Positions 29,239 to 56,702 are shown, counted from the first letter of the stretch. The stretch: DNA of 64,000 nt from Spirochaetia bacterium (GCA_963675665.1 OY776510.1:4896001-4960000), one strand, 5' to 3'. Notes: generated from the letters alone by a model not told the origin. Numbers and translations are program-made.

Positions 29239-29288
29239 TATTTACTCCTGAAAATTTATTCTCACCGTAAACGGCAATAATACTATCC

Positions 29289-29379
29289 CCGCCATGGAAG
29301 GCGGATAAGCTTGATGAAGTTTGGAGAACTTATCTCCAAACTTCAGAAACGGTTTAAACATGGATGTTTAAACCGTTTC
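29289..29379 (-). repeat. Structured intergenic element E1 (three hairpins)
   Basis: GAAACGGTTTAAAC-ATCCAT-GTTTAAACCGTTTC, T, GAAGTTTGGAGA-TAAGT-TCTCCAAACTTC, CCGCC-TTCCAT-GGCGG. The first arm contains the thiolase stop codon. Confidence 0.8.
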
Positions 29380-32638: not shown

Positions 32639-32700
32639 ATCTAACTCCTATAAAAAGTCAACCACAAGCTAAAAATATAAGCTTATGATCTAGTCGGATA

Positions 32701-33813
32701 TCAACCGACCATTACAGCTTCCCATGCTGCTGCCTGCATTTCCCTGTATTCTTTTCTAAAAGCCATTTTCATCGGATCAAACGGCTCTCTGGTTTTTAAA
32801 ATTGTATATACCAAAGTGCTCATCTTGCGGGCGGCAGCTATTACACTCTTACCCGAGCCTTTCTGCTTCTTCATCGCTGCATACTTCGTCATTATTCGGT
32901 ACGTCCCGGTCTTCTTTTGCATACGAACCATTCCCATCACCATCTGTACGAAGGCTGTCCTCAGTTCTACAGGCCCACGCTTTGTTATATGTCCATGATG
33001 TATTGTCATATTTGAGTTCTGCACCCATGGCACAAGCCCGGCGTTTGCTGCATATTTCTTCGCACTATCATATCTGCCGATATCGTCTGTATAGGCTCTT
33101 ACTGTTGCTGCTGTTATTAGACCCACGCCTGGTATTGTCTGCAGAAGCTCAACATCTTCATCGTCCTCCACAAGCTCAGCCAAAACCTTTTCAAGCTGCT
33201 TGACTTGCGATGCCTGATTATCTATCATATCCAGTAACGGTATTACCGTTTTGGCAGCGCTTCCGTAAAAGTCGTGGTCCTCGAGACCGTTCAGGATTCG
33301 CTGCCTTTCTTTTTTACTCTGCAGCTGTCCGCGTTTGGTCTCTATTCCATAACCAAGTAATAAGCCATGCACCTGGTTCTTTAACGACACAACAGATTTT
33401 ACCAGTATCGACCTGGATTTCAGCACCCTTCGAATATCCTCACTCTCTTGGGAACATAATATCGATTCAGGCAGCATGTCTTTCTCAAGAAACTCCGCCA
33501 GGGTGCGTGCATCATGTTTGTCTGTCTTTTTTACAGATTCATTCACTACCTTGAATTTCAAAGTATTCACTACAACCACTTCGACTCCAGCCTTTAACAG
33601 TTTATTGCGGAAATAACGGGCATTCCCGGTTGTTTCCACCGCTGCTCTCAACTCATATTCCTCTTCACAATATTCATCCAGCATTTTCAGAAATGCTCCA
33701 TAACCATTTCCGCTGGTCGGATACATTCCCAATTGATCAATTTTTCGGTCTTCACTTAAAAGGCATACTGTAAACTGCGTTTTGTGAAGATCCACGCCAA
33801 TACTCATCTTCAT
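32701..33813 (-). CDS. IS110-family DEDD recombinase/transposase
   Basis: IGVDLHK, VETTG, KKTDKHDA, TIPGVG, AGLVP...S. Confidence 0.95.
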   Translation of the reverse strand: MKMSIGVDLHKTQFTVCLLSEDRKIDQLGMYPTSGNGYGAFLKMLDEYCEEEYELRAAVETTGNARYFRNKLLKAGVEVVVVNTLKFKVVNESVKKTDKHDARTLAEFLEKDMLPESILCSQESEDIRRVLKSRSILVKSVVSLKNQVHGLLLGYGIETKRGQLQSKKERQRILNGLEDHDFYGSAAKTVIPLLDMIDNQASQVKQLEKVLAELVEDDEDVELLQTIPGVGLITAATVRAYTDDIGRYDSAKKYAANAGLVPWVQNSNMTIHHGHITKRGPVELRTAFVQMVMGMVRMQKKTGTYRIMTKYAAMKKQKGSGKSVIAAARKMSTLVYTILKTREPFDPMKMAFRKEYREMQAAAWEAVMVG

Positions 33814-33848
33814 GTTCTATCTCCAATAGTTTGAAGCAGTGCCTATAC

Positions 33849-34001
33849 GGTGAATTGTTCCATTCTCCTATCCGGTCTCGCAGACCATTGAATGTTTCGG
33901 TTACGGCTCTTCAATCTCCTAAACGGTCTCGCGGACCAGTAAAAATGTCGAACAGTAACCTTACTGCCTCAATTAAAGTTAAGGCAGTATATCAATTCAC
34001 C
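33849..34001 (-). ncRNA. Putative bridge/seek RNA of IS110 copy 1
   Basis: Reverse complement of 54723-54875; see copy 2. Confidence 0.7.
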
Positions 34002-34026
34002 AGCTCATGAAGACTTTTTATCATTC

Positions 34027-34167
34027 CTCCTATAAAAAGTTTCCGCATGGATGCGGGTTTTAAGAGGTGAAGTAGTAAATCTAAACTGCGTAGCAGTTTA
34101 AACTGCATTGCAGTTTAGATTTACTACTTCAAAATGATAAAATAACATGGAAGTTATTTTATCATTC
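34027..34167 (-). mobile_element. Structured element E2, putative non-autonomous IS110-end MITE in tandem with the IS
   Basis: Preceded by TATAGGAG. Starts GAATGATAAAA (same as the IS left end) and ends ACTTTTTATAGGAG (same as the IS right end). Has a 14-bp hairpin with TTCCAT loop, a 21-bp GAAG..CTTC hairpin and CCGC-ATCCAT-GCGG. Confidence 0.78.
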
Positions 34168-40388: not shown

Positions 40389-40508
40389 CTCCTATAGAAA
40401 CTCGACTTTAATCGTAAGCCATGGATGGCCGGTTGCAGAAGTGAAGTTTTCAAACAAAGTTTGGAAACTTCAAAATGTTAAAAATACATGGATGTATTTT
40501 TAACATTC
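40389..40508 (-). repeat. Structured element E3 with IS-like ends
   Basis: G-AATGTTAAAAATAC-ATCCAT-GTATTTTTAACATT-TT-GAAG..CTTC-AC...GCC-ATCCAT-GGC...GTCGAGTTTCTATAGGAG directly before the metH ATG. Confidence 0.8.
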
Positions 40509-53284: not shown

Positions 53285-54510
53285 AGTATATATACCTTTA
53301 CAGCCGTTCCTTTATTAATACCTTCCGAATTGCGCGGGATCCGCACCGTTCCGAAAGCTTCGGCAAGCATTGTTATCAGTCCCGATTCTCCATGAACAGG
53401 AACCGCCATATTTCCATCTGCAGTATGCTCCAGTTTGACAAACTGCCAGGTTTCACGCCCCGGGGCCCCGCTTATATTTTCCGTCAGAACGGCCTCCGTA
53501 TAGGTCTCAGGCGGCGGCACGGACCGGTTAAGCAGACAGACCAGATGCCGGACGATTATGCCGAAAACTACAAGCGCCGAAACCGGATGCCCGGGCAGGC
53601 CGATTACAGGCTTACCCGCAGCGTTCGCGATAATGGTGGGTTTTCCCGGTTTGAAAGCAATTCCGTGGCATAATACCCCGGGAGAACCAAGCGCCGTTAT
53701 CGCCTTAAGCGAGTAATCCTTCACGCCTACTGATGAGCCGCCTGACAGCAGCACAATATCGCTGTTCCTGTGGCACTCACGAAGAACGTCAGTCAGCGCC
53801 TGTTCATCATCCTGTATTATAAAACGATCGTATACATCACAGTCCAATTGTTCGACTGCGGCTGAGATAGTATAGGTGTTAATATCCCGGATCTGACCCA
53901 ATGCCGGCTCCTCGTCCGGACCGACAATCTCGTCGCCGGTTGAGATGACGGAAACTACCGGTTTGCGGTAAACTTCAACTTCGGTACAGCCTATTGAAGT
54001 AAGAACTCCCAAATCGGCCGGTTTTAGTTTTTTCCCGGCTTTTAGAACAACCGTTCCTTTTACAATATCATCCCCGATATTTATTACATTTTCCCTGACG
54101 GTTGCCGGCCTGAAAATGGAAATCTCGTCATCGGTAAGTTTTTCAATATATTCAATCATGACTACAGCGTCGGCCCCGTCCGGAACCATGCCGCCGGTAG
54201 GGACGTAGACAGCTTCACCCGGTTTCAGTTCCATTCCGGCAGTCTGTCCCATAGAAACCTCGCCTTTCAGCTGCAGAAACGCAGGCAGGGTTTCCGAAGC
54301 CCCTGAAACATCCGATGCTTTAACGGCATAACCGTCTTTTGTCGAACGTCTGAATGCGGGCACTGTCTCAGCAGATACCGCATCGGCTGCAAGAAACCTT
54401 CCCGAAGCATTTTCAACCGGTATTATTTCAATATCCAGGGGATATGTTTTAAAGTTCTCTTCCAACAGCTTTTTTGCTTCCGCTATTGTAACGACACTTA
54501 GTAACTCCAT
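53281..54510 (-). CDS. moeA: Molybdopterin molybdotransferase (gephyrin-like)
   Basis: STKDGYAV, TGGMVPDGADAV, STGDE, SGGSSVG, KPGKP, GLPGHP. Confidence 0.9.
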   Translation of the reverse strand: MELLSVVTIAEAKKLLEENFKTYPLDIEIIPVENASGRFLAADAVSAETVPAFRRSTKDGYAVKASDVSGASETLPAFLQLKGEVSMGQTAGMELKPGEAVYVPTGGMVPDGADAVVMIEYIEKLTDDEISIFRPATVRENVINIGDDIVKGTVVLKAGKKLKPADLGVLTSIGCTEVEVYRKPVVSVISTGDEIVGPDEEPALGQIRDINTYTISAAVEQLDCDVYDRFIIQDDEQALTDVLRECHRNSDIVLLSGGSSVGVKDYSLKAITALGSPGVLCHGIAFKPGKPTIIANAAGKPVIGLPGHPVSALVVFGIIVRHLVCLLNRSVPPPETYTEAVLTENISGAPGRETWQFVKLEHTADGNMAVPVHGESGLITMLAEAFGTVRIPRNSEGINKGTAVKVYIL

Positions 54511-54619
54511 ATTTTATCTCCTGTTTTTTAATAAAACATATCAGCCGATGAAAAACAAGAGCTCCGTTTTTTATTTCTTTATTTTACACATTGTATTATA
54601 TTTATTATATATAGAGAGG

Positions 54620-54697
54620 GAATTATGAAAAATCTTCCATGAGTTTTCATAATTAACTACACTGATCTGCCGCTTATGGCGGAATATATTATAGGAG
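54620..54697 (+). repeat. Structured element E4 (short form) immediately upstream of IS copy 2
   Basis: G-AATTATGAAAAATC-TTCCAT-GAGTTTTCATAATT ... CCGC-TTATG-GCGG ... TTATAGGAG; the start resembles the IS left end GAATGATAAAAAGTCTTCATGAG. Confidence 0.65.
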
Positions 54698-54722
54698 GAA
54701 TGATAAAAAGTCTTCATGAGCT

Positions 54723-54875
54723 GGTGAATTGATATACTGCCTTAACTTTAATTGAGGCAGTAAGGTTACTGTTCGACATTTTTACTGGTCCGCGAGACCG
54801 TTTAGGAGATTGAAGAGCCGTAACCGAAACATTCAATGGTCTGCGAGACCGGATAGGAGAATGGAACAATTCACC
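54723..54875 (+). ncRNA. Putative bridge/seek RNA
   Basis: GGTGAATTG/CAATTCACC closing stem, a 5' hairpin, and two repeated modules GGTC-YGCGA-GACC-..TAGGAG whose flanks match the target and donor junction sequences. Confidence 0.72.
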
Positions 54876-54910
54876 GTATAGGCACTGCTTCAAACTATTG
54901 GAGATAGAAC

Positions 54911-56023
54911 ATGAAGATGAGTATTGGCGTGGATCTTCACAAAACGCAGTTTACAGTATGCCTTTTAAGTGAAGACCGAAAAATTGATCAATTGGGAATG
55001 TATCCGACCAGCGGAAATGGTTATGGAGCATTTCTGAAAATGCTGGATGAATATTGTGAAGAGGAATATGAGTTGAGAGCAGCGGTGGAAACAACCGGGA
55101 ATGCCCGTTATTTCCGCAATAAACTGTTAAAGGCTGGAGTCGAAGTGGTTGTAGTGAATACTTTGAAATTCAAGGTAGTGAATGAATCTGTAAAAAAGAC
55201 AGACAAACATGATGCACGCACCCTGGCGGAGTTTCTTGAGAAAGACATGCTGCCTGAATCGATATTATGTTCCCAAGAGAGTGAGGATATTCGAAGGGTG
55301 CTGAAATCCAGGTCGATACTGGTAAAATCTGTTGTGTCGTTAAAGAACCAGGTGCATGGCTTATTACTTGGTTATGGAATAGAGACCAAACGCGGACAGC
55401 TGCAGAGTAAAAAAGAAAGGCAGCGAATCCTGAACGGTCTCGAGGACCACGACTTTTACGGAAGCGCTGCCAAAACGGTAATACCGTTACTGGATATGAT
55501 AGATAATCAGGCATCGCAAGTCAAGCAGCTTGAAAAGGTTTTGGCTGAGCTTGTGGAGGACGATGAAGATGTTGAGCTTCTGCAGACAATACCAGGCGTG
55601 GGTCTAATAACAGCAGCAACAGTAAGAGCCTATACAGACGATATCGGCAGATATGATAGTGCGAAGAAATATGCAGCAAACGCCGGGCTTGTGCCATGGG
55701 TGCAGAACTCAAATATGACAATACATCATGGACATATAACAAAGCGTGGGCCTGTAGAACTGAGGACAGCCTTCGTACAGATGGTGATGGGAATGGTTCG
55801 TATGCAAAAGAAGACCGGGACGTACCGAATAATGACGAAGTATGCAGCGATGAAGAAGCAGAAAGGCTCGGGTAAGAGTGTAATAGCTGCCGCCCGCAAG
55901 ATGAGCACTTTGGTATATACAATTTTAAAAACCAGAGAGCCGTTTGATCCGATGAAAATGGCTTTTAGAAAAGAATACAGGGAAATGCAGGCAGCAGCAT
56001 GGGAAGCTGTAATGGTCGGTTGA
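54911..56023 (+). CDS. IS110-family DEDD recombinase/transposase
   Basis: Protein identical to 32701-33813. Confidence 0.95.
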   Translation: MKMSIGVDLHKTQFTVCLLSEDRKIDQLGMYPTSGNGYGAFLKMLDEYCEEEYELRAAVETTGNARYFRNKLLKAGVEVVVVNTLKFKVVNESVKKTDKHDARTLAEFLEKDMLPESILCSQESEDIRRVLKSRSILVKSVVSLKNQVHGLLLGYGIETKRGQLQSKKERQRILNGLEDHDFYGSAAKTVIPLLDMIDNQASQVKQLEKVLAELVEDDEDVELLQTIPGVGLITAATVRAYTDDIGRYDSAKKYAANAGLVPWVQNSNMTIHHGHITKRGPVELRTAFVQMVMGMVRMQKKTGTYRIMTKYAAMKKQKGSGKSVIAAARKMSTLVYTILKTREPFDPMKMAFRKEYREMQAAAWEAVMVG

Positions 56024-56084
56024 TATCCGACTAGATCATAAGCTTATATTTTTAGCTTGTGGTTGACTTTTTATAGGAGCAAAA

Positions 56085-56702
56085 ATGCAGGTGTCTTTTA
56101 AAAAGATACTCCTGAGTATGCTGCTGTTTGCTGCGGGAAGTGCAACTTTTTTATCCGGAGACGATACTACGAATAATTACCTTTCATTATACGATTTCAA
56201 TAGCATGAATAACAATTCACAGTACGAATGGCAGGATTTTACTGATCAGGTAATGGGAGGGAAATCGGAAATATCCACATCCCTGCTTCAGGAGGACGGG
56301 GAGTTTTTTCTGCGGATGGAAGGCGAAGTGTCTTTAAAAAACAACGGAGGCTTTATTCAGACCCGGCTTCAACTGAGCAGGGGATTTGGAACCCTGGATG
56401 CTTCTGATTATGACGGAATCAGATTGCTGGTAAGGGGAATAGAGTCCGGCTACTACCTGTTTTTCAGAACAACAAGCACCATTCTGCCTTGGCTGTATTA
56501 CTCGGCCGGTATCGATGTAAAACCCGGATGGCAGGTAATCGACATACCATGGTCGGCAGTAACCAAAGGAGCTTACGGTTCAATGGGAAATTTCAAAACA
56601 TCAAAACTGAAAAGTATAGCTGTTGTTGCTTTCGGACGGGAATTTACAGCTCAGATTGATCTTAAACGAATAGGTTTATATAAAAAGGATCCTGAACTTT
56701 AA
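56085..56702 (+). CDS. CIA30-family protein with signal peptide
   Basis: W..FTDQVMGGKS, GEVSLKNNGGF motifs. Confidence 0.8.
   Translation: MQVSFKKILLSMLLFAAGSATFLSGDDTTNNYLSLYDFNSMNNNSQYEWQDFTDQVMGGKSEISTSLLQEDGEFFLRMEGEVSLKNNGGFIQTRLQLSRGFGTLDASDYDGIRLLVRGIESGYYLFFRTTSTILPWLYYSAGIDVKPGWQVIDIPWSAVTKGAYGSMGNFKTSKLKSIAVVAFGREFTAQIDLKRIGLYKKDPEL

What the first reader, a model, noticed from the sequence alone, without database searches (positions are those of the whole stretch)
54698..54910. IS110 bridge-like RNA apparently programmed to recognise a Shine-Dalgarno plus start codon
Seen: the 213-nt region upstream of the recombinase has a closing stem (GGTGAATTG 54723 / CAATTCACC 54875), a 5' hairpin and two paralogous GGTC-YGCGA-GACC modules. 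In module 1 the internal loop has CATTTTTACT (54777-54786) on one side and TAGGAG (54803-54808) on the other. Overlapped on a shared AG/CT core these spell TAGG-AG-TAAAAATG, an SD, a spacer and an ATG. The reconstructed empty site of copy 2 is TAGG-AG-CAAAAATG, a single mismatch. Established: IS110/IS1111 elements use bridge/seek RNAs whose loops pair with both strands of the target, and IS621 uses a CT core. Inference: this element uses RNA guidance to home on translation-initiation regions, an abundant intergenic target class. I do not know of this target class being described, but cannot search.
Basis: partly seen in the sequence, partly recalled or inferred. Interest (0 to 1): 0.9.

Follow-up and report, generated by a model that had tools for sequence, protein, structure and literature searches.

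The report
Insertion sequence that targets ribosome-binding sites
This is the guide-RNA region of a jumping gene that uses base pairing to land between the ribosome-binding site and the start codon of host genes; it brings a replacement ribosome-binding site, and this target type was already known for a related element, IS900.

Summary
Window 54698-54910 is the left non-coding end of a 1,382-bp IS110-family element (15 copies in the genome).

All 15 copies sit inside an AGGAG Shine-Dalgarno (SD) sequence, 5-7 nt upstream of the ATG of an intact gene in the same orientation. The element's right end (TTGACTTTTTATAGGAG) restores the SD.

In relatives, the 3' strand of loop 1 covaries with the bases before AGGAG (63 of 67 sites at -1, 51 of 67 at -2). 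The 5' strand of loop 2 covaries with the element's left end (14 of 17 combinations). RNA guidance to the SD is therefore well supported.

The start-codon half is weaker. There is still modest start-codon-anchored covariation, and the element selects on the right side among true SD sites.

The target class is not new: IS900's published motif is CATGN6TCTCCTT.

Three things may be new:
- The guide strands are swapped relative to IS621, so the transposase reads in the same direction as the host gene.
- The clade spans several phyla.
- About 70 mini-elements with the same ends sit at ribosome-binding sites in this genome.

The parts
54698..56079 (+). Complete IS110-family element, 1,382 bp. I assign the left AGGAG to the flank and the right AGGAG to the element.
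   Evidence: 15 copies at 99.9-100% identity. Boundaries come from the flank table. Cutting the copies out removes 1,382 bp each.
54693..54697 (+). AGGAG of the target at the left junction. The crossover (core) lies within these 5 bases.
   Evidence: The left flank varies up to position -1. The right-end copy is constant up to AGGAG and variable after it.
54698..54910 (+). Left non-coding end, the predicted bridge-RNA gene.
   Evidence: Fold z = -4.45. 13 of 28 consensus pairs have compensatory changes across 36 relatives; the invariant U-G pair at columns 117/132 fits this strand, not its complement. No Rfam family matched. Expression was not tested.
54704..54709 (+). TAAAAA, a -10-like hexamer. 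It would lie 17 nt after the right end's TTGACT once the two ends are joined in a circle.
   Evidence: Read from the sequence. GATAAAAA is invariant in 36 relatives. The junction-promoter principle comes from PMC11208160. Inference.
54723..54731 (+). 5' arm of the closing stem.
   Evidence: Pairs with 54867-54875. Columns 38/206 and 39/205 have 10 and 13 sequences with changes on both sides.
54737..54760 (+). 5' stem-loop.
   Evidence: In the minimum-free-energy structure. A hairpin of different sequence sits at the same place in the relatives (alignment).
54777..54786 (+). 5' strand of target loop 1 (CAUUUUUACU), complementary to AG + A-rich spacer + ATG on the gene's sense strand. It matches the LTG (left target guide) of IS621 if the DNA is turned round.
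   Evidence: CA(U) is kept in 35 of 36 relatives. The variable part covaries with the spacer when anchored on the ATG (0.518 cognate against 0.386 non-cognate, p = 0.0002). The register is unresolved.
54787..54799 (+). Distal hairpin of the target loop.
   Evidence: Columns 117-121/128-132, with 5 to 8 compensatory changes per variable pair.
54800..54810 (+). 3' strand of target loop 1: GU + UUAGG + AG + AU. This guide has the same sequence as T-T-AGGAG on the gene's sense strand. It has the geometry of the extended IS621 RTG (right target guide).
   Evidence: Guide positions -1 and -2 match the flank in 63 of 67 and 51 of 67 sites; permutation means are 31.3 and 20.2. All four bases are seen at -1.
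54828..54837 (+). 5' strand of donor loop 2 (AACAUUCAAU). Its CAUUC is complementary to GAATG, the first bases of the element.
   Evidence: 14 of 17 distinct left-end/guide combinations are 5 of 5 complementary, over six different left-end 5-mers.
54838..54850 (+). Distal hairpin of the donor loop.
   Evidence: Columns 170-173/180-183, with 17 and 16 sequences changed on both sides.
54851..54861 (+). 3' strand of donor loop 2: GG + AUAGG + AG + AA, identical to the element's right end ATAGGAG.
   Evidence: Both are essentially invariant: guide ATAGGAG in 35 of 36 aligned RNAs (one has AAAGGAG), and right end TTGACTTTTTATAGGAG in all families. Because neither varies, there is no covariation test.
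54911..56023 (+). Transposase/recombinase, 370 aa.
   Evidence: PF01548 at 9.3e-18 and PF02371 at 1.4e-17. Matches IS621 transposase 8wt6 at E = 5.6e-15 and ISCro4 9t56 at 7.2e-16.
56063..56079 (+). Right end TTGACTTTTTATAGGAG: a -35-like TTGACT plus a replacement SD for the downstream gene.
   Evidence: Identical in 15 of 15 own copies and in relatives down to 52% protein identity.
56080..56702 (+). Right target flank (CAAAA + ATG at 56085) and the intact downstream CIA30-domain gene.
54620..54697 (+). Diverged short mini-element directly upstream of this copy: GAATTATGAAAAA..., a hairpin at 54666-54683, then ...ATATATTATAGGAG.
   Evidence: Read by eye. The hairpin was found by the scan. The nhmmer profile did not detect it, so this is tentative.
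32645..34026 (-). Second copy of the element in the window.
   Evidence: Inverted repeat 32645-34048 / 54676-56079, 1,404 nt at 100%.
34027..34167 (-). 141-bp mini-element (GAATGATAAAAT...CTTTTTATAGGAG). The second IS copy inserted into its regenerated SD.
   Evidence: nhmmer E = 3.4e-22.
40389..40508 (-). Another mini-element, ending ...TTTCTATAGGAG and followed by TTTTT + ATG.
   Evidence: E = 2.6e-14.

Best explanation
Window 54698-54910 encodes the bridge RNA of an active IS110-family insertion sequence.

The RNA has a 5' hairpin and two internal loops.
- Loop 1 reads the target. Its 3' strand (GU-UUAGG-AG) has the same sequence as T-T-AGGAG, so it pairs with the antisense strand of a Shine-Dalgarno (SD) sequence. 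Its 5' strand (CAUUUUUACU) is complementary to the A-rich spacer and ATG on the sense strand, and it pairs loosely and in a variable register.
- Loop 2 reads the element's own joined ends. AUAGGAG matches the right end. CAUUC is complementary to GAATG at the left end.

Recombination at a dinucleotide inside AGGAG places the element between the SD and the start codon, with the transposase reading the same way as the host gene. The dinucleotide is most likely the last AG, which is CT on the other strand, as in IS621. The element's right end carries its own TATAGGAG, so the host gene keeps an SD at the original spacing.

Shown here: the site specificity, the covariation of the SD-side guide and of the left-end guide, and the fold.
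Inferred: that the RNA is expressed from a promoter formed across the joined ends (TTGACT, 17 nt, TAAAAA); the exact core; that the start codon itself is paired; and that the host gene is then transcribed by read-through.
For: - 15 of 15 own copies lie in AGGAG, followed by N5-7 and the ATG of an ORF of 93-729 aa. Only 1,157 of 6,564 AGGAG sites and 172 of 766 TAGGAG sites in the emptied genome have such a context.
- Relatives show the matching pattern. An Oceanispirochaeta MAG has guide GUACAGGAG and flank TACAGGAG (10 copies). A Syntrophales MAG has guide GCAAAGGAG and flank AAAGGAG (9 copies).
- Over 67 sites and 17 guide variants, -1 matches in 63 of 67 and -2 in 51 of 67. Permutation p = 0.0002 for each, the floor of 5,000 permutations. 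Positions -3 and -4 show nothing.
- The left-end guide is perfectly complementary in 14 of 17 combinations.
- For structure, 13 of 28 pairs have compensatory changes and the fold z is -4.45.
- Right-side selection within one genome: among ATG-started SD sites, targets have N6 spacing in 12 of 15 against 32.5% of 884 others (p = 0.0002). They have 2.60 against 1.67 A in the 4 nt before the ATG (p = 0.0008).
- A simple guide-match score of 8 or more picks 133 of 6,564 AGGAG sites, and these hold 12 of the 15 targets.
- The protein is IS110-type and related to IS621.
- The downstream genes are intact. They include phosphoglucose isomerase and a lipoamide-dehydrogenase-like gene.
- No terminator-like site was found inside the element on the + strand.
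Against: - No RNA data: no RNA run is listed for this organism.
- No Rfam family matched.
- The 5' strand of loop 1 matches natural right flanks poorly.
- Across families the ATG spacing runs from 3 to 12.
- Per-position covariation is weak, with best p about 0.005-0.02. All registers show a small cognate excess of 0.04-0.06, which may reflect host base composition.
- CA of CAU may be structural, because it is predicted to pair with UG.
- Of 117 distinct right-end junctions outside this genome, 28 have no open start codon at N3-10.
- My parser required [AG][AG]GAG in the loop-1 guide, and the metagenome query was the AGGAG-bearing right end. The constancy of AGGAG is therefore partly imposed, and only 65 of 161 loci were parsed.
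- At least 5 of the 15 own left flanks are ends of mini-elements, so the left flanks are not independent.
Confidence: 0.8

Rival explanations
1. Only the SD half is read by the RNA. The start codon and the A-rich spacer appear in the flanks because a real SD is followed by them, and because insertions at AGGAG inside genes are lost by selection. CAU is conserved because CA pairs with UG to close the loop.
For: - ATG spacing varies from 3 to 12, and the contiguous register N5 holds in only 9 of 68 pairs.
- RNAalifold pairs CA with UG, invariant in 35 of 36 sequences.
- The base next to the core does not fit the guide: 3 of 15, and 19 of 68 against a permutation mean of 0.26.
- 28 of 117 junctions have no start codon by my criterion.
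Against: - Within one genome, and among true SD sites only, targets are enriched for N6 spacing (p = 0.0002) and for A before the ATG (p = 0.0008). Selection against gene disruption does not explain this.
- ATG-anchored covariation has p = 0.0002.
- The one relative whose loop-1 guide is not AGGAG (L088) has also lost CAU while keeping UG.
Confidence: 0.3
2. The protein alone recognises the site, and the structured left end is only a leader or promoter region of the transposase gene.
For: No RNA or binding data exist here, and no Rfam hit was found.
Against: All four bases at -1 change together in guide and target. Six left-end 5-mers change together with the loop-2 strand. The transposases involved are 52-79% identical. 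Homology to IS621, for which RNA guidance is shown (PMC11208160 and PMC11208158).
Confidence: 0.03
3. The apparent targeting is partly an effect of homologous recombination, or repeated recombination, between the shared ends of the IS and the mini-elements rather than fresh insertion at SD sites.
For: At least 5 of 15 copies abut a mini-element whose last 12-13 bases equal the IS right end. Tandem arrays of 2 to 5 mini-elements exist.
Against: 10 of 15 own copies have unrelated left flanks. Relatives in other phyla show the same SD insertion with varied flanks. A shared stretch of 12 bp is short for RecA-dependent exchange (established knowledge, not tested here).
Confidence: 0.05

Closest known systems
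IS621 and its bridge RNA (IS110 group; Durrant 2024 PMC11208160, Hiraizumi 2024 PMC11208158; I read passages only)
   Same: - DEDD plus Tnp recombinase, with a sequence match at E = 5.6e-15.
- RNA encoded in the left end upstream of the recombinase.
- A 5' stem-loop and two internal loops, each with two guide strands and a distal hairpin.
- The 3' strand has the layout GU linker + 5 nt + AG + A(U/A), matching G72-U73, 74-78, A79-G80 and A81-U82 of IS621.
- The 5' strand of the donor loop has 7 guide bases, then 3 more before the hairpin, as in A123-U132.
- A CT core is possible.
- A -35 in the right end and a -10 in the left end.
   Different: - The guide strands are swapped relative to the genes. 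In IS621 the 5' strand (LTG, the left target guide, and LDG, the left donor guide) has the sequence of the sense strand of the left flank and right end. Here the 3' strand does.
- The geometry and the CT core therefore fit only if the DNA is turned round. The bridge-RNA and transposase genes then lie on the strand opposite to the CT core.
- The target is an SD region rather than a REP (repetitive extragenic palindromic) sequence; the IS621 target is ATCAGGCCTAC.
- The IS621-equivalent 'right' guide (7 nt) dominates here, and the 'left' guide is a loose match.
IS900 of Mycobacterium avium subsp. paratuberculosis (IS110 family)
   Same: The target is a translation-initiation region. The published motif is CATGNNNNNNTCTCCTT, which is AAGGAGA-N6-CATG on the other strand (PMC8141618). 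Insertion is orientation-specific and rarely falls inside genes.
   Different: In IS900 the ORF aligned with the host signals (hed) lies on the strand complementary to the transposase, so the transposase is antisense to the target gene. Here it is co-directional. I did not examine IS900's RNA or its sequence. The statement that IS900 inserts between the RBS and the ATG is recalled from Doran 1997 and Bull 2000, which I could not read.
MITEPpu9 / ISPpu9 of Pseudomonas putida (PMC12288879, passages)
   Same: A small non-autonomous element carries the ends of an IS110-family IS and is proposed to be moved by its transposase in trans.
   Different: The mini-elements here are 100-157 bp and give 72 profile hits. 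They carry three hairpins and no known small-RNA gene. They sit at ribosome-binding sites and supply the SD of the downstream gene, sometimes in tandem arrays.

Membership tests
IS110 family insertion sequence | DEDD RuvC-like N-terminal domain and a C-terminal Tnp domain in one protein | tested here: met
   PF01548 over residues 5-155 and PF02371 over 222-303. PDB matches to the IS621 and ISCro4 transposases.
IS110 family insertion sequence | No terminal inverted repeats and no target-site duplication. The same short core is present at both junctions. | tested here: met
   The ends GAATGAT... and ...TATAGGAG are not inverted repeats. AGGAG is shared by donor and target. In 2 of 15 copies the base before AGGAG differs between the left flank and the right end, so the repeat is not a duplication of the target beyond AGGAG.
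IS110 family insertion sequence | Site- and orientation-specific insertion | tested here: met
   15 of 15 copies are at AGGAG-N5-7-ATG in one orientation.
Bridge RNA (IS621 type) | Structured RNA in the long non-coding end, with a 5' stem-loop and two internal loops | tested here: met
   No Rfam model matched; I do not know whether Rfam 15 holds a bridge-RNA family.
Bridge RNA (IS621 type) | Loop strands covary with the target and with the donor ends | tested here: met
   Target -1 and -2 match in 63 of 67 and 51 of 67 sites. Left end: 14 of 17 combinations. The right-end guide and the right end are both invariant, so they are uninformative. The spacer/ATG strand gives a modest signal.
Bridge RNA (IS621 type) | [quoted passage not shown] | tested here: not met
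   IS621 positions come from PMC11208158. Here the sense-identical guides (UUAGGAG, AUAGGAG) are on the 3' strands, and the sense-complementary guides (CAUUC, CAU...) are on the 5' strands.
Bridge RNA (IS621 type) | CT core dinucleotide shared by donor and target | tested here: inconclusive
   The crossover is confined to AGGAG. CT exists on the antisense strand at two places. By the guide geometry the last AG is the likelier one. Sequence alone cannot fix it.
Bridge RNA (IS621 type) | The RNA is expressed from a promoter rebuilt across the joined ends and binds the recombinase | not testable with these tools
   TTGACT, 17 nt, then TAAAAA would form across the junction. No RNA run is listed.
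IS900-type elements that target translation-initiation signals | Target motif of SD, short spacer and ATG | tested here: met
   The IS900 motif is from PMC8141618.
IS900-type elements that target translation-initiation signals | Transposase antisense to the target gene, so that a complementary-strand ORF uses the host signals | tested here: not met
   Here the transposase is co-directional with the target gene in 15 of 15 copies. The longest antisense ORFs in the element are 114 and 133 aa.

The most novel reading that the evidence does not exclude
A deep IS110 clade spanning several phyla has its gene cargo inverted relative to the recombination site. The members seen here come from MAGs labelled Spirochaetota, Desulfobacterota, Bacteroidota and Lentisphaerota, at 33-100% protein identity.

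The same SD/ATG-reading bridge RNA that would put IS900 antisense to a gene here puts the element in sense. It sits between a host promoter and a host ORF, and it hands the ORF a replacement SD. The element would then be transcribed by the host gene's own promoter without silencing that gene.

The same recombinase and RNA would also move a family of about 70 mini-elements of 100-157 bp. These act as portable 5' leaders: three hairpins plus an SD. They now supply the ribosome-binding site of about 45 genes in this genome.

The U-rich, slip-tolerant 5' guide strand would be an adaptation to a degenerate target class rather than to one site.
Probability: 0.35. Interest if true: 0.8.

Novelty: new variant of a known kind. 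Interest (0 to 1): 0.6.

Why it matters
Bridge recombinases are being developed as programmable genome editors, so natural variants matter for that work. Three features here bear on it:
- A swapped guide order.
- A dominant 7-nt 'right' guide.
- A tolerant, low-complexity 'left' guide, which shows how the system can be tuned to a class of sites rather than to one sequence.

For biology, the finding gives an RNA-level explanation for the old observation that some IS110 elements land between the ribosome-binding site and the start codon. It also shows how an element can do this without killing the gene, because it brings its own SD.

If the companion mini-elements are mobile, many genes in this genome carry a transposon-derived 5' leader and ribosome-binding site. 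That would be a route to regulatory rewiring.

Tried and rejected
- Plasmid collection, near search with the element: no match.
- Rfam at E up to 1 over 54500-56200: no match.
- Earlier findings of this scan, looked up by words, by sequence and by genome: nothing returned.
- RNA evidence: no RNA holder is listed among 11 runs.
- Reads laid from four runs (contigs only): the contigs break at the element's ends, and none bridges an empty site at this locus. This gives no direct empty-site check.
- Orthologues of the downstream gene in two genomes of the same genus, 68-69% identical. They have their own TAAGGAG-N7-ATG and CAAGGAG-N6-ATG without an element. They are too diverged to serve as exact empty sites.
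- Close relatives: only 3 of 41 genomes searched, counting this one, have the transposase at E of 1e-30 or better.
- A 10-codon mini-ORF starting at the ATG in GAATGAT: rejected, because relatives have GCACGAT or GAACGAT there.
- Handshake-guide logic of IS621: the two bases after AG in loop 1 (AU or AA) do not match what the donor would predict (GA). I did not pursue this.
- The idea that the left-flank hairpins are host terminators or a riboswitch-like leader: replaced by the mini-element reading.
- My first parser returned nothing because of a regular-expression error. This was corrected.
- L088 (Leptospira MAG) has loop-1 strands UCAGGGAAAU and GGUUGAGAG and left flank TTTTTAGAG. Its right flank does not fit its 5' strand. 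It is unexplained and is a single copy.

Full report
**What is there**

Window 54698-56079 is a 1,382-bp element. Its ORF (54911-56023, 370 aa) carries the two IS110 transposase domains. It matches the solved IS621 and ISCro4 transposases at E of about 1e-15.

The genome holds 15 copies at 99.9-100% identity. One of them lies inverted in the window at 32645-34026.

The region folds far better than shuffles: -63.9 kcal/mol, z = -4.45, and 0 of 200 shuffles as good.

I aligned 36 distinct homologous left ends. RNAalifold keeps four features, and 13 of the 28 predicted pairs show compensatory changes:
- the closing stem
- the basal stem of module 1
- both distal hairpins

Several pairs are U-G or G-U, one of them invariant. 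This fits the transposase-sense strand as the RNA strand. Rfam gave no hit.

**Where the element sits**

The flanks of all 15 copies follow one pattern:
- a variable flank
- [T/A]AGGAG
- the element, running from GAATGATAAAAAG to GGTTGACTTTTTATAGGAG
- 5-7 variable bases
- the ATG of an ORF of 93-729 aa in the same orientation

The left flank varies right up to the base before AGGAG, and the right flank varies from the base after it. The crossover therefore lies inside AGGAG, and the element's right end supplies a new SD.

I cut the copies out inside a script and counted sites in the emptied genome:

| Site type | All sites | Followed by a start codon opening 60 aa or more |
|---|---|---|
| AGGAG | 6,564 | 1,157 |
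| TAGGAG | 766 | 172 |
| TATAGGAG | 141 | 56 |

Fifteen of 15 is far from chance on any of these bases.

The genes downstream are intact. They include phosphoglucose isomerase, a lipoamide-dehydrogenase-like gene, a transketolase_C/E1-beta-like gene and KDPG aldolase. No terminator-like site lies inside the element on its sense strand. Both facts fit continued expression by read-through, but I did not test that.

**Relatives and covariation**

The transposase has many relatives at 68-97% identity, mostly on short metagenome contigs. A scan of one genome per species returned 80 loci.

Guide and flank change together in the two multi-copy relatives, while loop 2 and the right end stay the same:

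| Source | Copies | Left flank | Loop 1, 3' strand |
|---|---|---|---|
| Oceanispirochaeta MAG (79% identity) | 10 | TACAGGAG | GUACAGGAG |
| Syntrophales MAG (74% identity) | 9 | AAAGGAG | GCAAAGGAG |
| This genome | 15 | T[A/T]TAGGAG | GUUUAGGAG |

A regular-expression parser recovered both loops in 65 of 161 loci. The remainder were truncated, too short or too diverged. The results over the parsed set:
- Over 67 distinct sites and 17 guide variants, the guide matches the flank at -1 in 63 of 67 sites (permutation mean 31.3).
- At -2 it matches in 51 of 67 (permutation mean 20.2). Both have p = 0.0002, the floor of the test.
- Positions -3 and -4 show nothing.
- The 5' strand of loop 2 follows the first five bases of the element through six different 5-mers (GAATG, GTATG, GCACG, GCATG, GAACG, GAGTG). 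It is perfectly complementary in 14 of 17 combinations.

This is what a bridge RNA predicts. It makes RNA guidance to the SD the best-supported part of the finding.

One caveat applies. The parser demanded [AG][AG]GAG in the loop-1 guide, and the metagenome query carried AGGAG. The constancy of AGGAG is therefore partly built in. The covarying positions were left free.

**The start-codon half**

The 5' strand of loop 1 is CAU + 6 variable bases + U. CA(U) is kept in 35 of 36 aligned RNAs.

Natural sites rarely fit it:
- N5 spacing occurs in 2 of 15 own sites and 9 of 68 guide/flank pairs. N6 occurs in 34, N7 in 10 and N8 in 7.
- The base predicted next to the core (T) occurs in 3 of 15 own sites.

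Covariation of the variable part with the spacer depends on the register:

| Register | Cognate match | Non-cognate match | Permutation p |
|---|---|---|---|
| Shifted by one base | 0.479 | 0.379 | 0.0016 |
| Anchored on the ATG | 0.518 | 0.386 | 0.0002 |

Single positions reach only p of 0.005-0.02. Every register shows a small cognate excess, which probably reflects host base composition.

Within this one genome that confound does not apply. Among ATG-started SD sites:
- Targets have N6 spacing in 12 of 15, against 32.5% of the other 884 (p = 0.0002).
- Targets have more A in the four bases before the ATG, 2.60 against 1.67 (p = 0.0008).

A crude guide-match score of 8 or more selects 133 of 6,564 AGGAG sites. 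These contain 12 of the 15 targets, and 109 of the 133 are SD contexts.

So the right side is selected. The two strands together behave as a detector of ribosome-binding sites. Whether the ATG itself is paired, and in which register, remains open. RNAalifold also pairs CA with an invariant UG, so the conservation could be structural.

One relative (L088) has changed both strands of loop 1 and lost CAU. This hints that CAU is a guide, but it is a single copy and its right flank does not fit.

Outside this genome, I counted 117 distinct right-end junctions:
- 86 have an open ATG at N3-10.
- 89 have any open start codon at N3-10.
- 28 have none.

**Polarity**

In IS621 the LTG, the left target guide (A50-U58), and the LDG, the left donor guide (A123-C130), lie 5' of each loop's hairpin and pair with the bottom strand. 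They therefore read like the top strand, which is the strand of the RNA and transposase genes. The RTG, the right target guide (G77-G80), and the RDG, the right donor guide, lie 3' and pair with the top strand (PMC11208158 passages; PMC11208160).

Here it is the other way round. The strands that read like the sense strand (UUAGGAG, AUAGGAG) are 3' of the hairpins. The strands complementary to it (CAUUC, CAU...) are 5'.

The 3' strands nevertheless copy the IS621 layout: GU, five bases, AG, then A(U/A). If the DNA is turned round, the core becomes CT. The simplest reading is that the machinery is the same and the gene cargo is inverted relative to the site. I put this at about 0.75.

This fits what is published for IS900. 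Its motif, given in the element's orientation, is CATGNNNNNNTCTCCTT. Its complementary-strand ORF is the one said to depend on host signals (PMC8141618). IS900 would then have the IS621 polarity and lie antisense to its target gene. The present clade lies in sense.

I did not examine IS900's sequence.

**Breadth**

A Lentisphaeria family at only 33% protein identity shows the same arrangement: AAAGGAG | element ... CATAGGAG | N5-8 ATG, with GGAAAGGAG in its loop.

Contigs carrying relatives are labelled Spirochaetota, Desulfobacterota, Dysgonamonadaceae, Leptospira, Treponema and others.

**Mini-elements**

The conserved hairpin seen in several left flanks turned out to be the right end of a non-autonomous element of 100-157 bp. 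Each mini-element has this anatomy:
- It starts GAATGATAAAA directly after an (A)GGAG.
- It has three hairpins.
- It ends TTTT(T)A[TC]AGGAG.

A profile built from 16 copies finds 72 hits in the genome:
- 57 reach the 3' end and end in GGAG.
- Of these 57, 45 are followed by a start codon opening 60 aa or more.
- Of these 57, 8 are followed by another mini-element or by an IS copy.
- Tandem arrays of 2, 3 and 5 occur.

Their ends are exactly the parts read by loop 2, so mobilisation in trans is plausible. This is inference. The precedent is MITEPpu9 (PMC12288879).

At least 5 of the 15 IS copies sit in an SD regenerated by a mini-element. The copy at 32645-34026 is one of them. By eye, the finding's own copy is another (54620-54697).

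**Literature**

The target class is in print for IS900. I read the 2021 motif. I saw the 1997 title only in reference lists.

I found no text linking a bridge or seek RNA to SD or ATG targets.
- The main text of PMC11208160 has no 'Shine' and no 'IS900'.
- PMC11187229 has no 'IS900' or 'RBS'.
- The one preprint that holds both 'IS110' and 'Shine-Dalgarno' uses the latter for a riboswitch.

I did not open any supplements, and they may bear on this.

**Verdict**

The start-codon half is open. The claimed novelty of the target class does not hold.

The swapped guide order, the replacement SD, the breadth of the clade and the companion mini-elements make this a new variant of a known kind.

Noticed in passing
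window 34027-34167 (-), 40389-40508 (-), partial 29287-29348 (-); genome-wide, e.g. G000:C1:2973058-2973366 and 1652333-1652891: A family of 100-157 bp mini-elements with the IS's terminal bases and three hairpins, sitting at ribosome-binding sites. There are 72 profile hits, and 45 supply the SD of an ORF of 60 aa or more. Tandem arrays of up to 5 occur.
   Followed up: partly
window 54730 / 56060 (joint in laid contigs of runs X1-X3): A contig of 18-24 kb in three runs (two of them from one sample) holds 36 bases like the left end (4 differences), then 6 other bases, then the last 20 bases of the right end. This would be a derivative of about 60 bp. No such copy is in this genome: the exact right end occurs only in the 15 full copies.
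   Followed up: partly
L088:1268-1471 (Leptospira MAG contig): A relative at 52% identity whose target loop reads UCAGGGAAAU / GGUUGAGAG instead of CAU... / ...AGGAG. It sits after TTTTTAGAG, with no start codon behind its right end. It may be naturally retargeted or decayed.
   Followed up: no
L100-L116 (Lentisphaeria chromosome CP091727.1): A distant IS110 family (33% identity) in at least 8 copies, with ends ATGGTATGATAAATAGC... and ...TTTTATCATAGGAG. It is also inserted between AAAGGAG and N5-8 ATG.
   Followed up: partly
window 56032: All four laid runs read C where the window has T, 48 bases from the element's right end. This is a single-base difference among copies or strains.
   Followed up: no
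G000:C1:1288557 and 1297011 (loci L014, L015): Two copies lie about 8 kb apart, before a transketolase_C/E1-beta-like gene and a lipoamide-dehydrogenase-like gene. For the E1-beta-like gene (L014) the upstream ORF's stop codon lies just before the SD, so the insertion is inside an operon.
   Followed up: no
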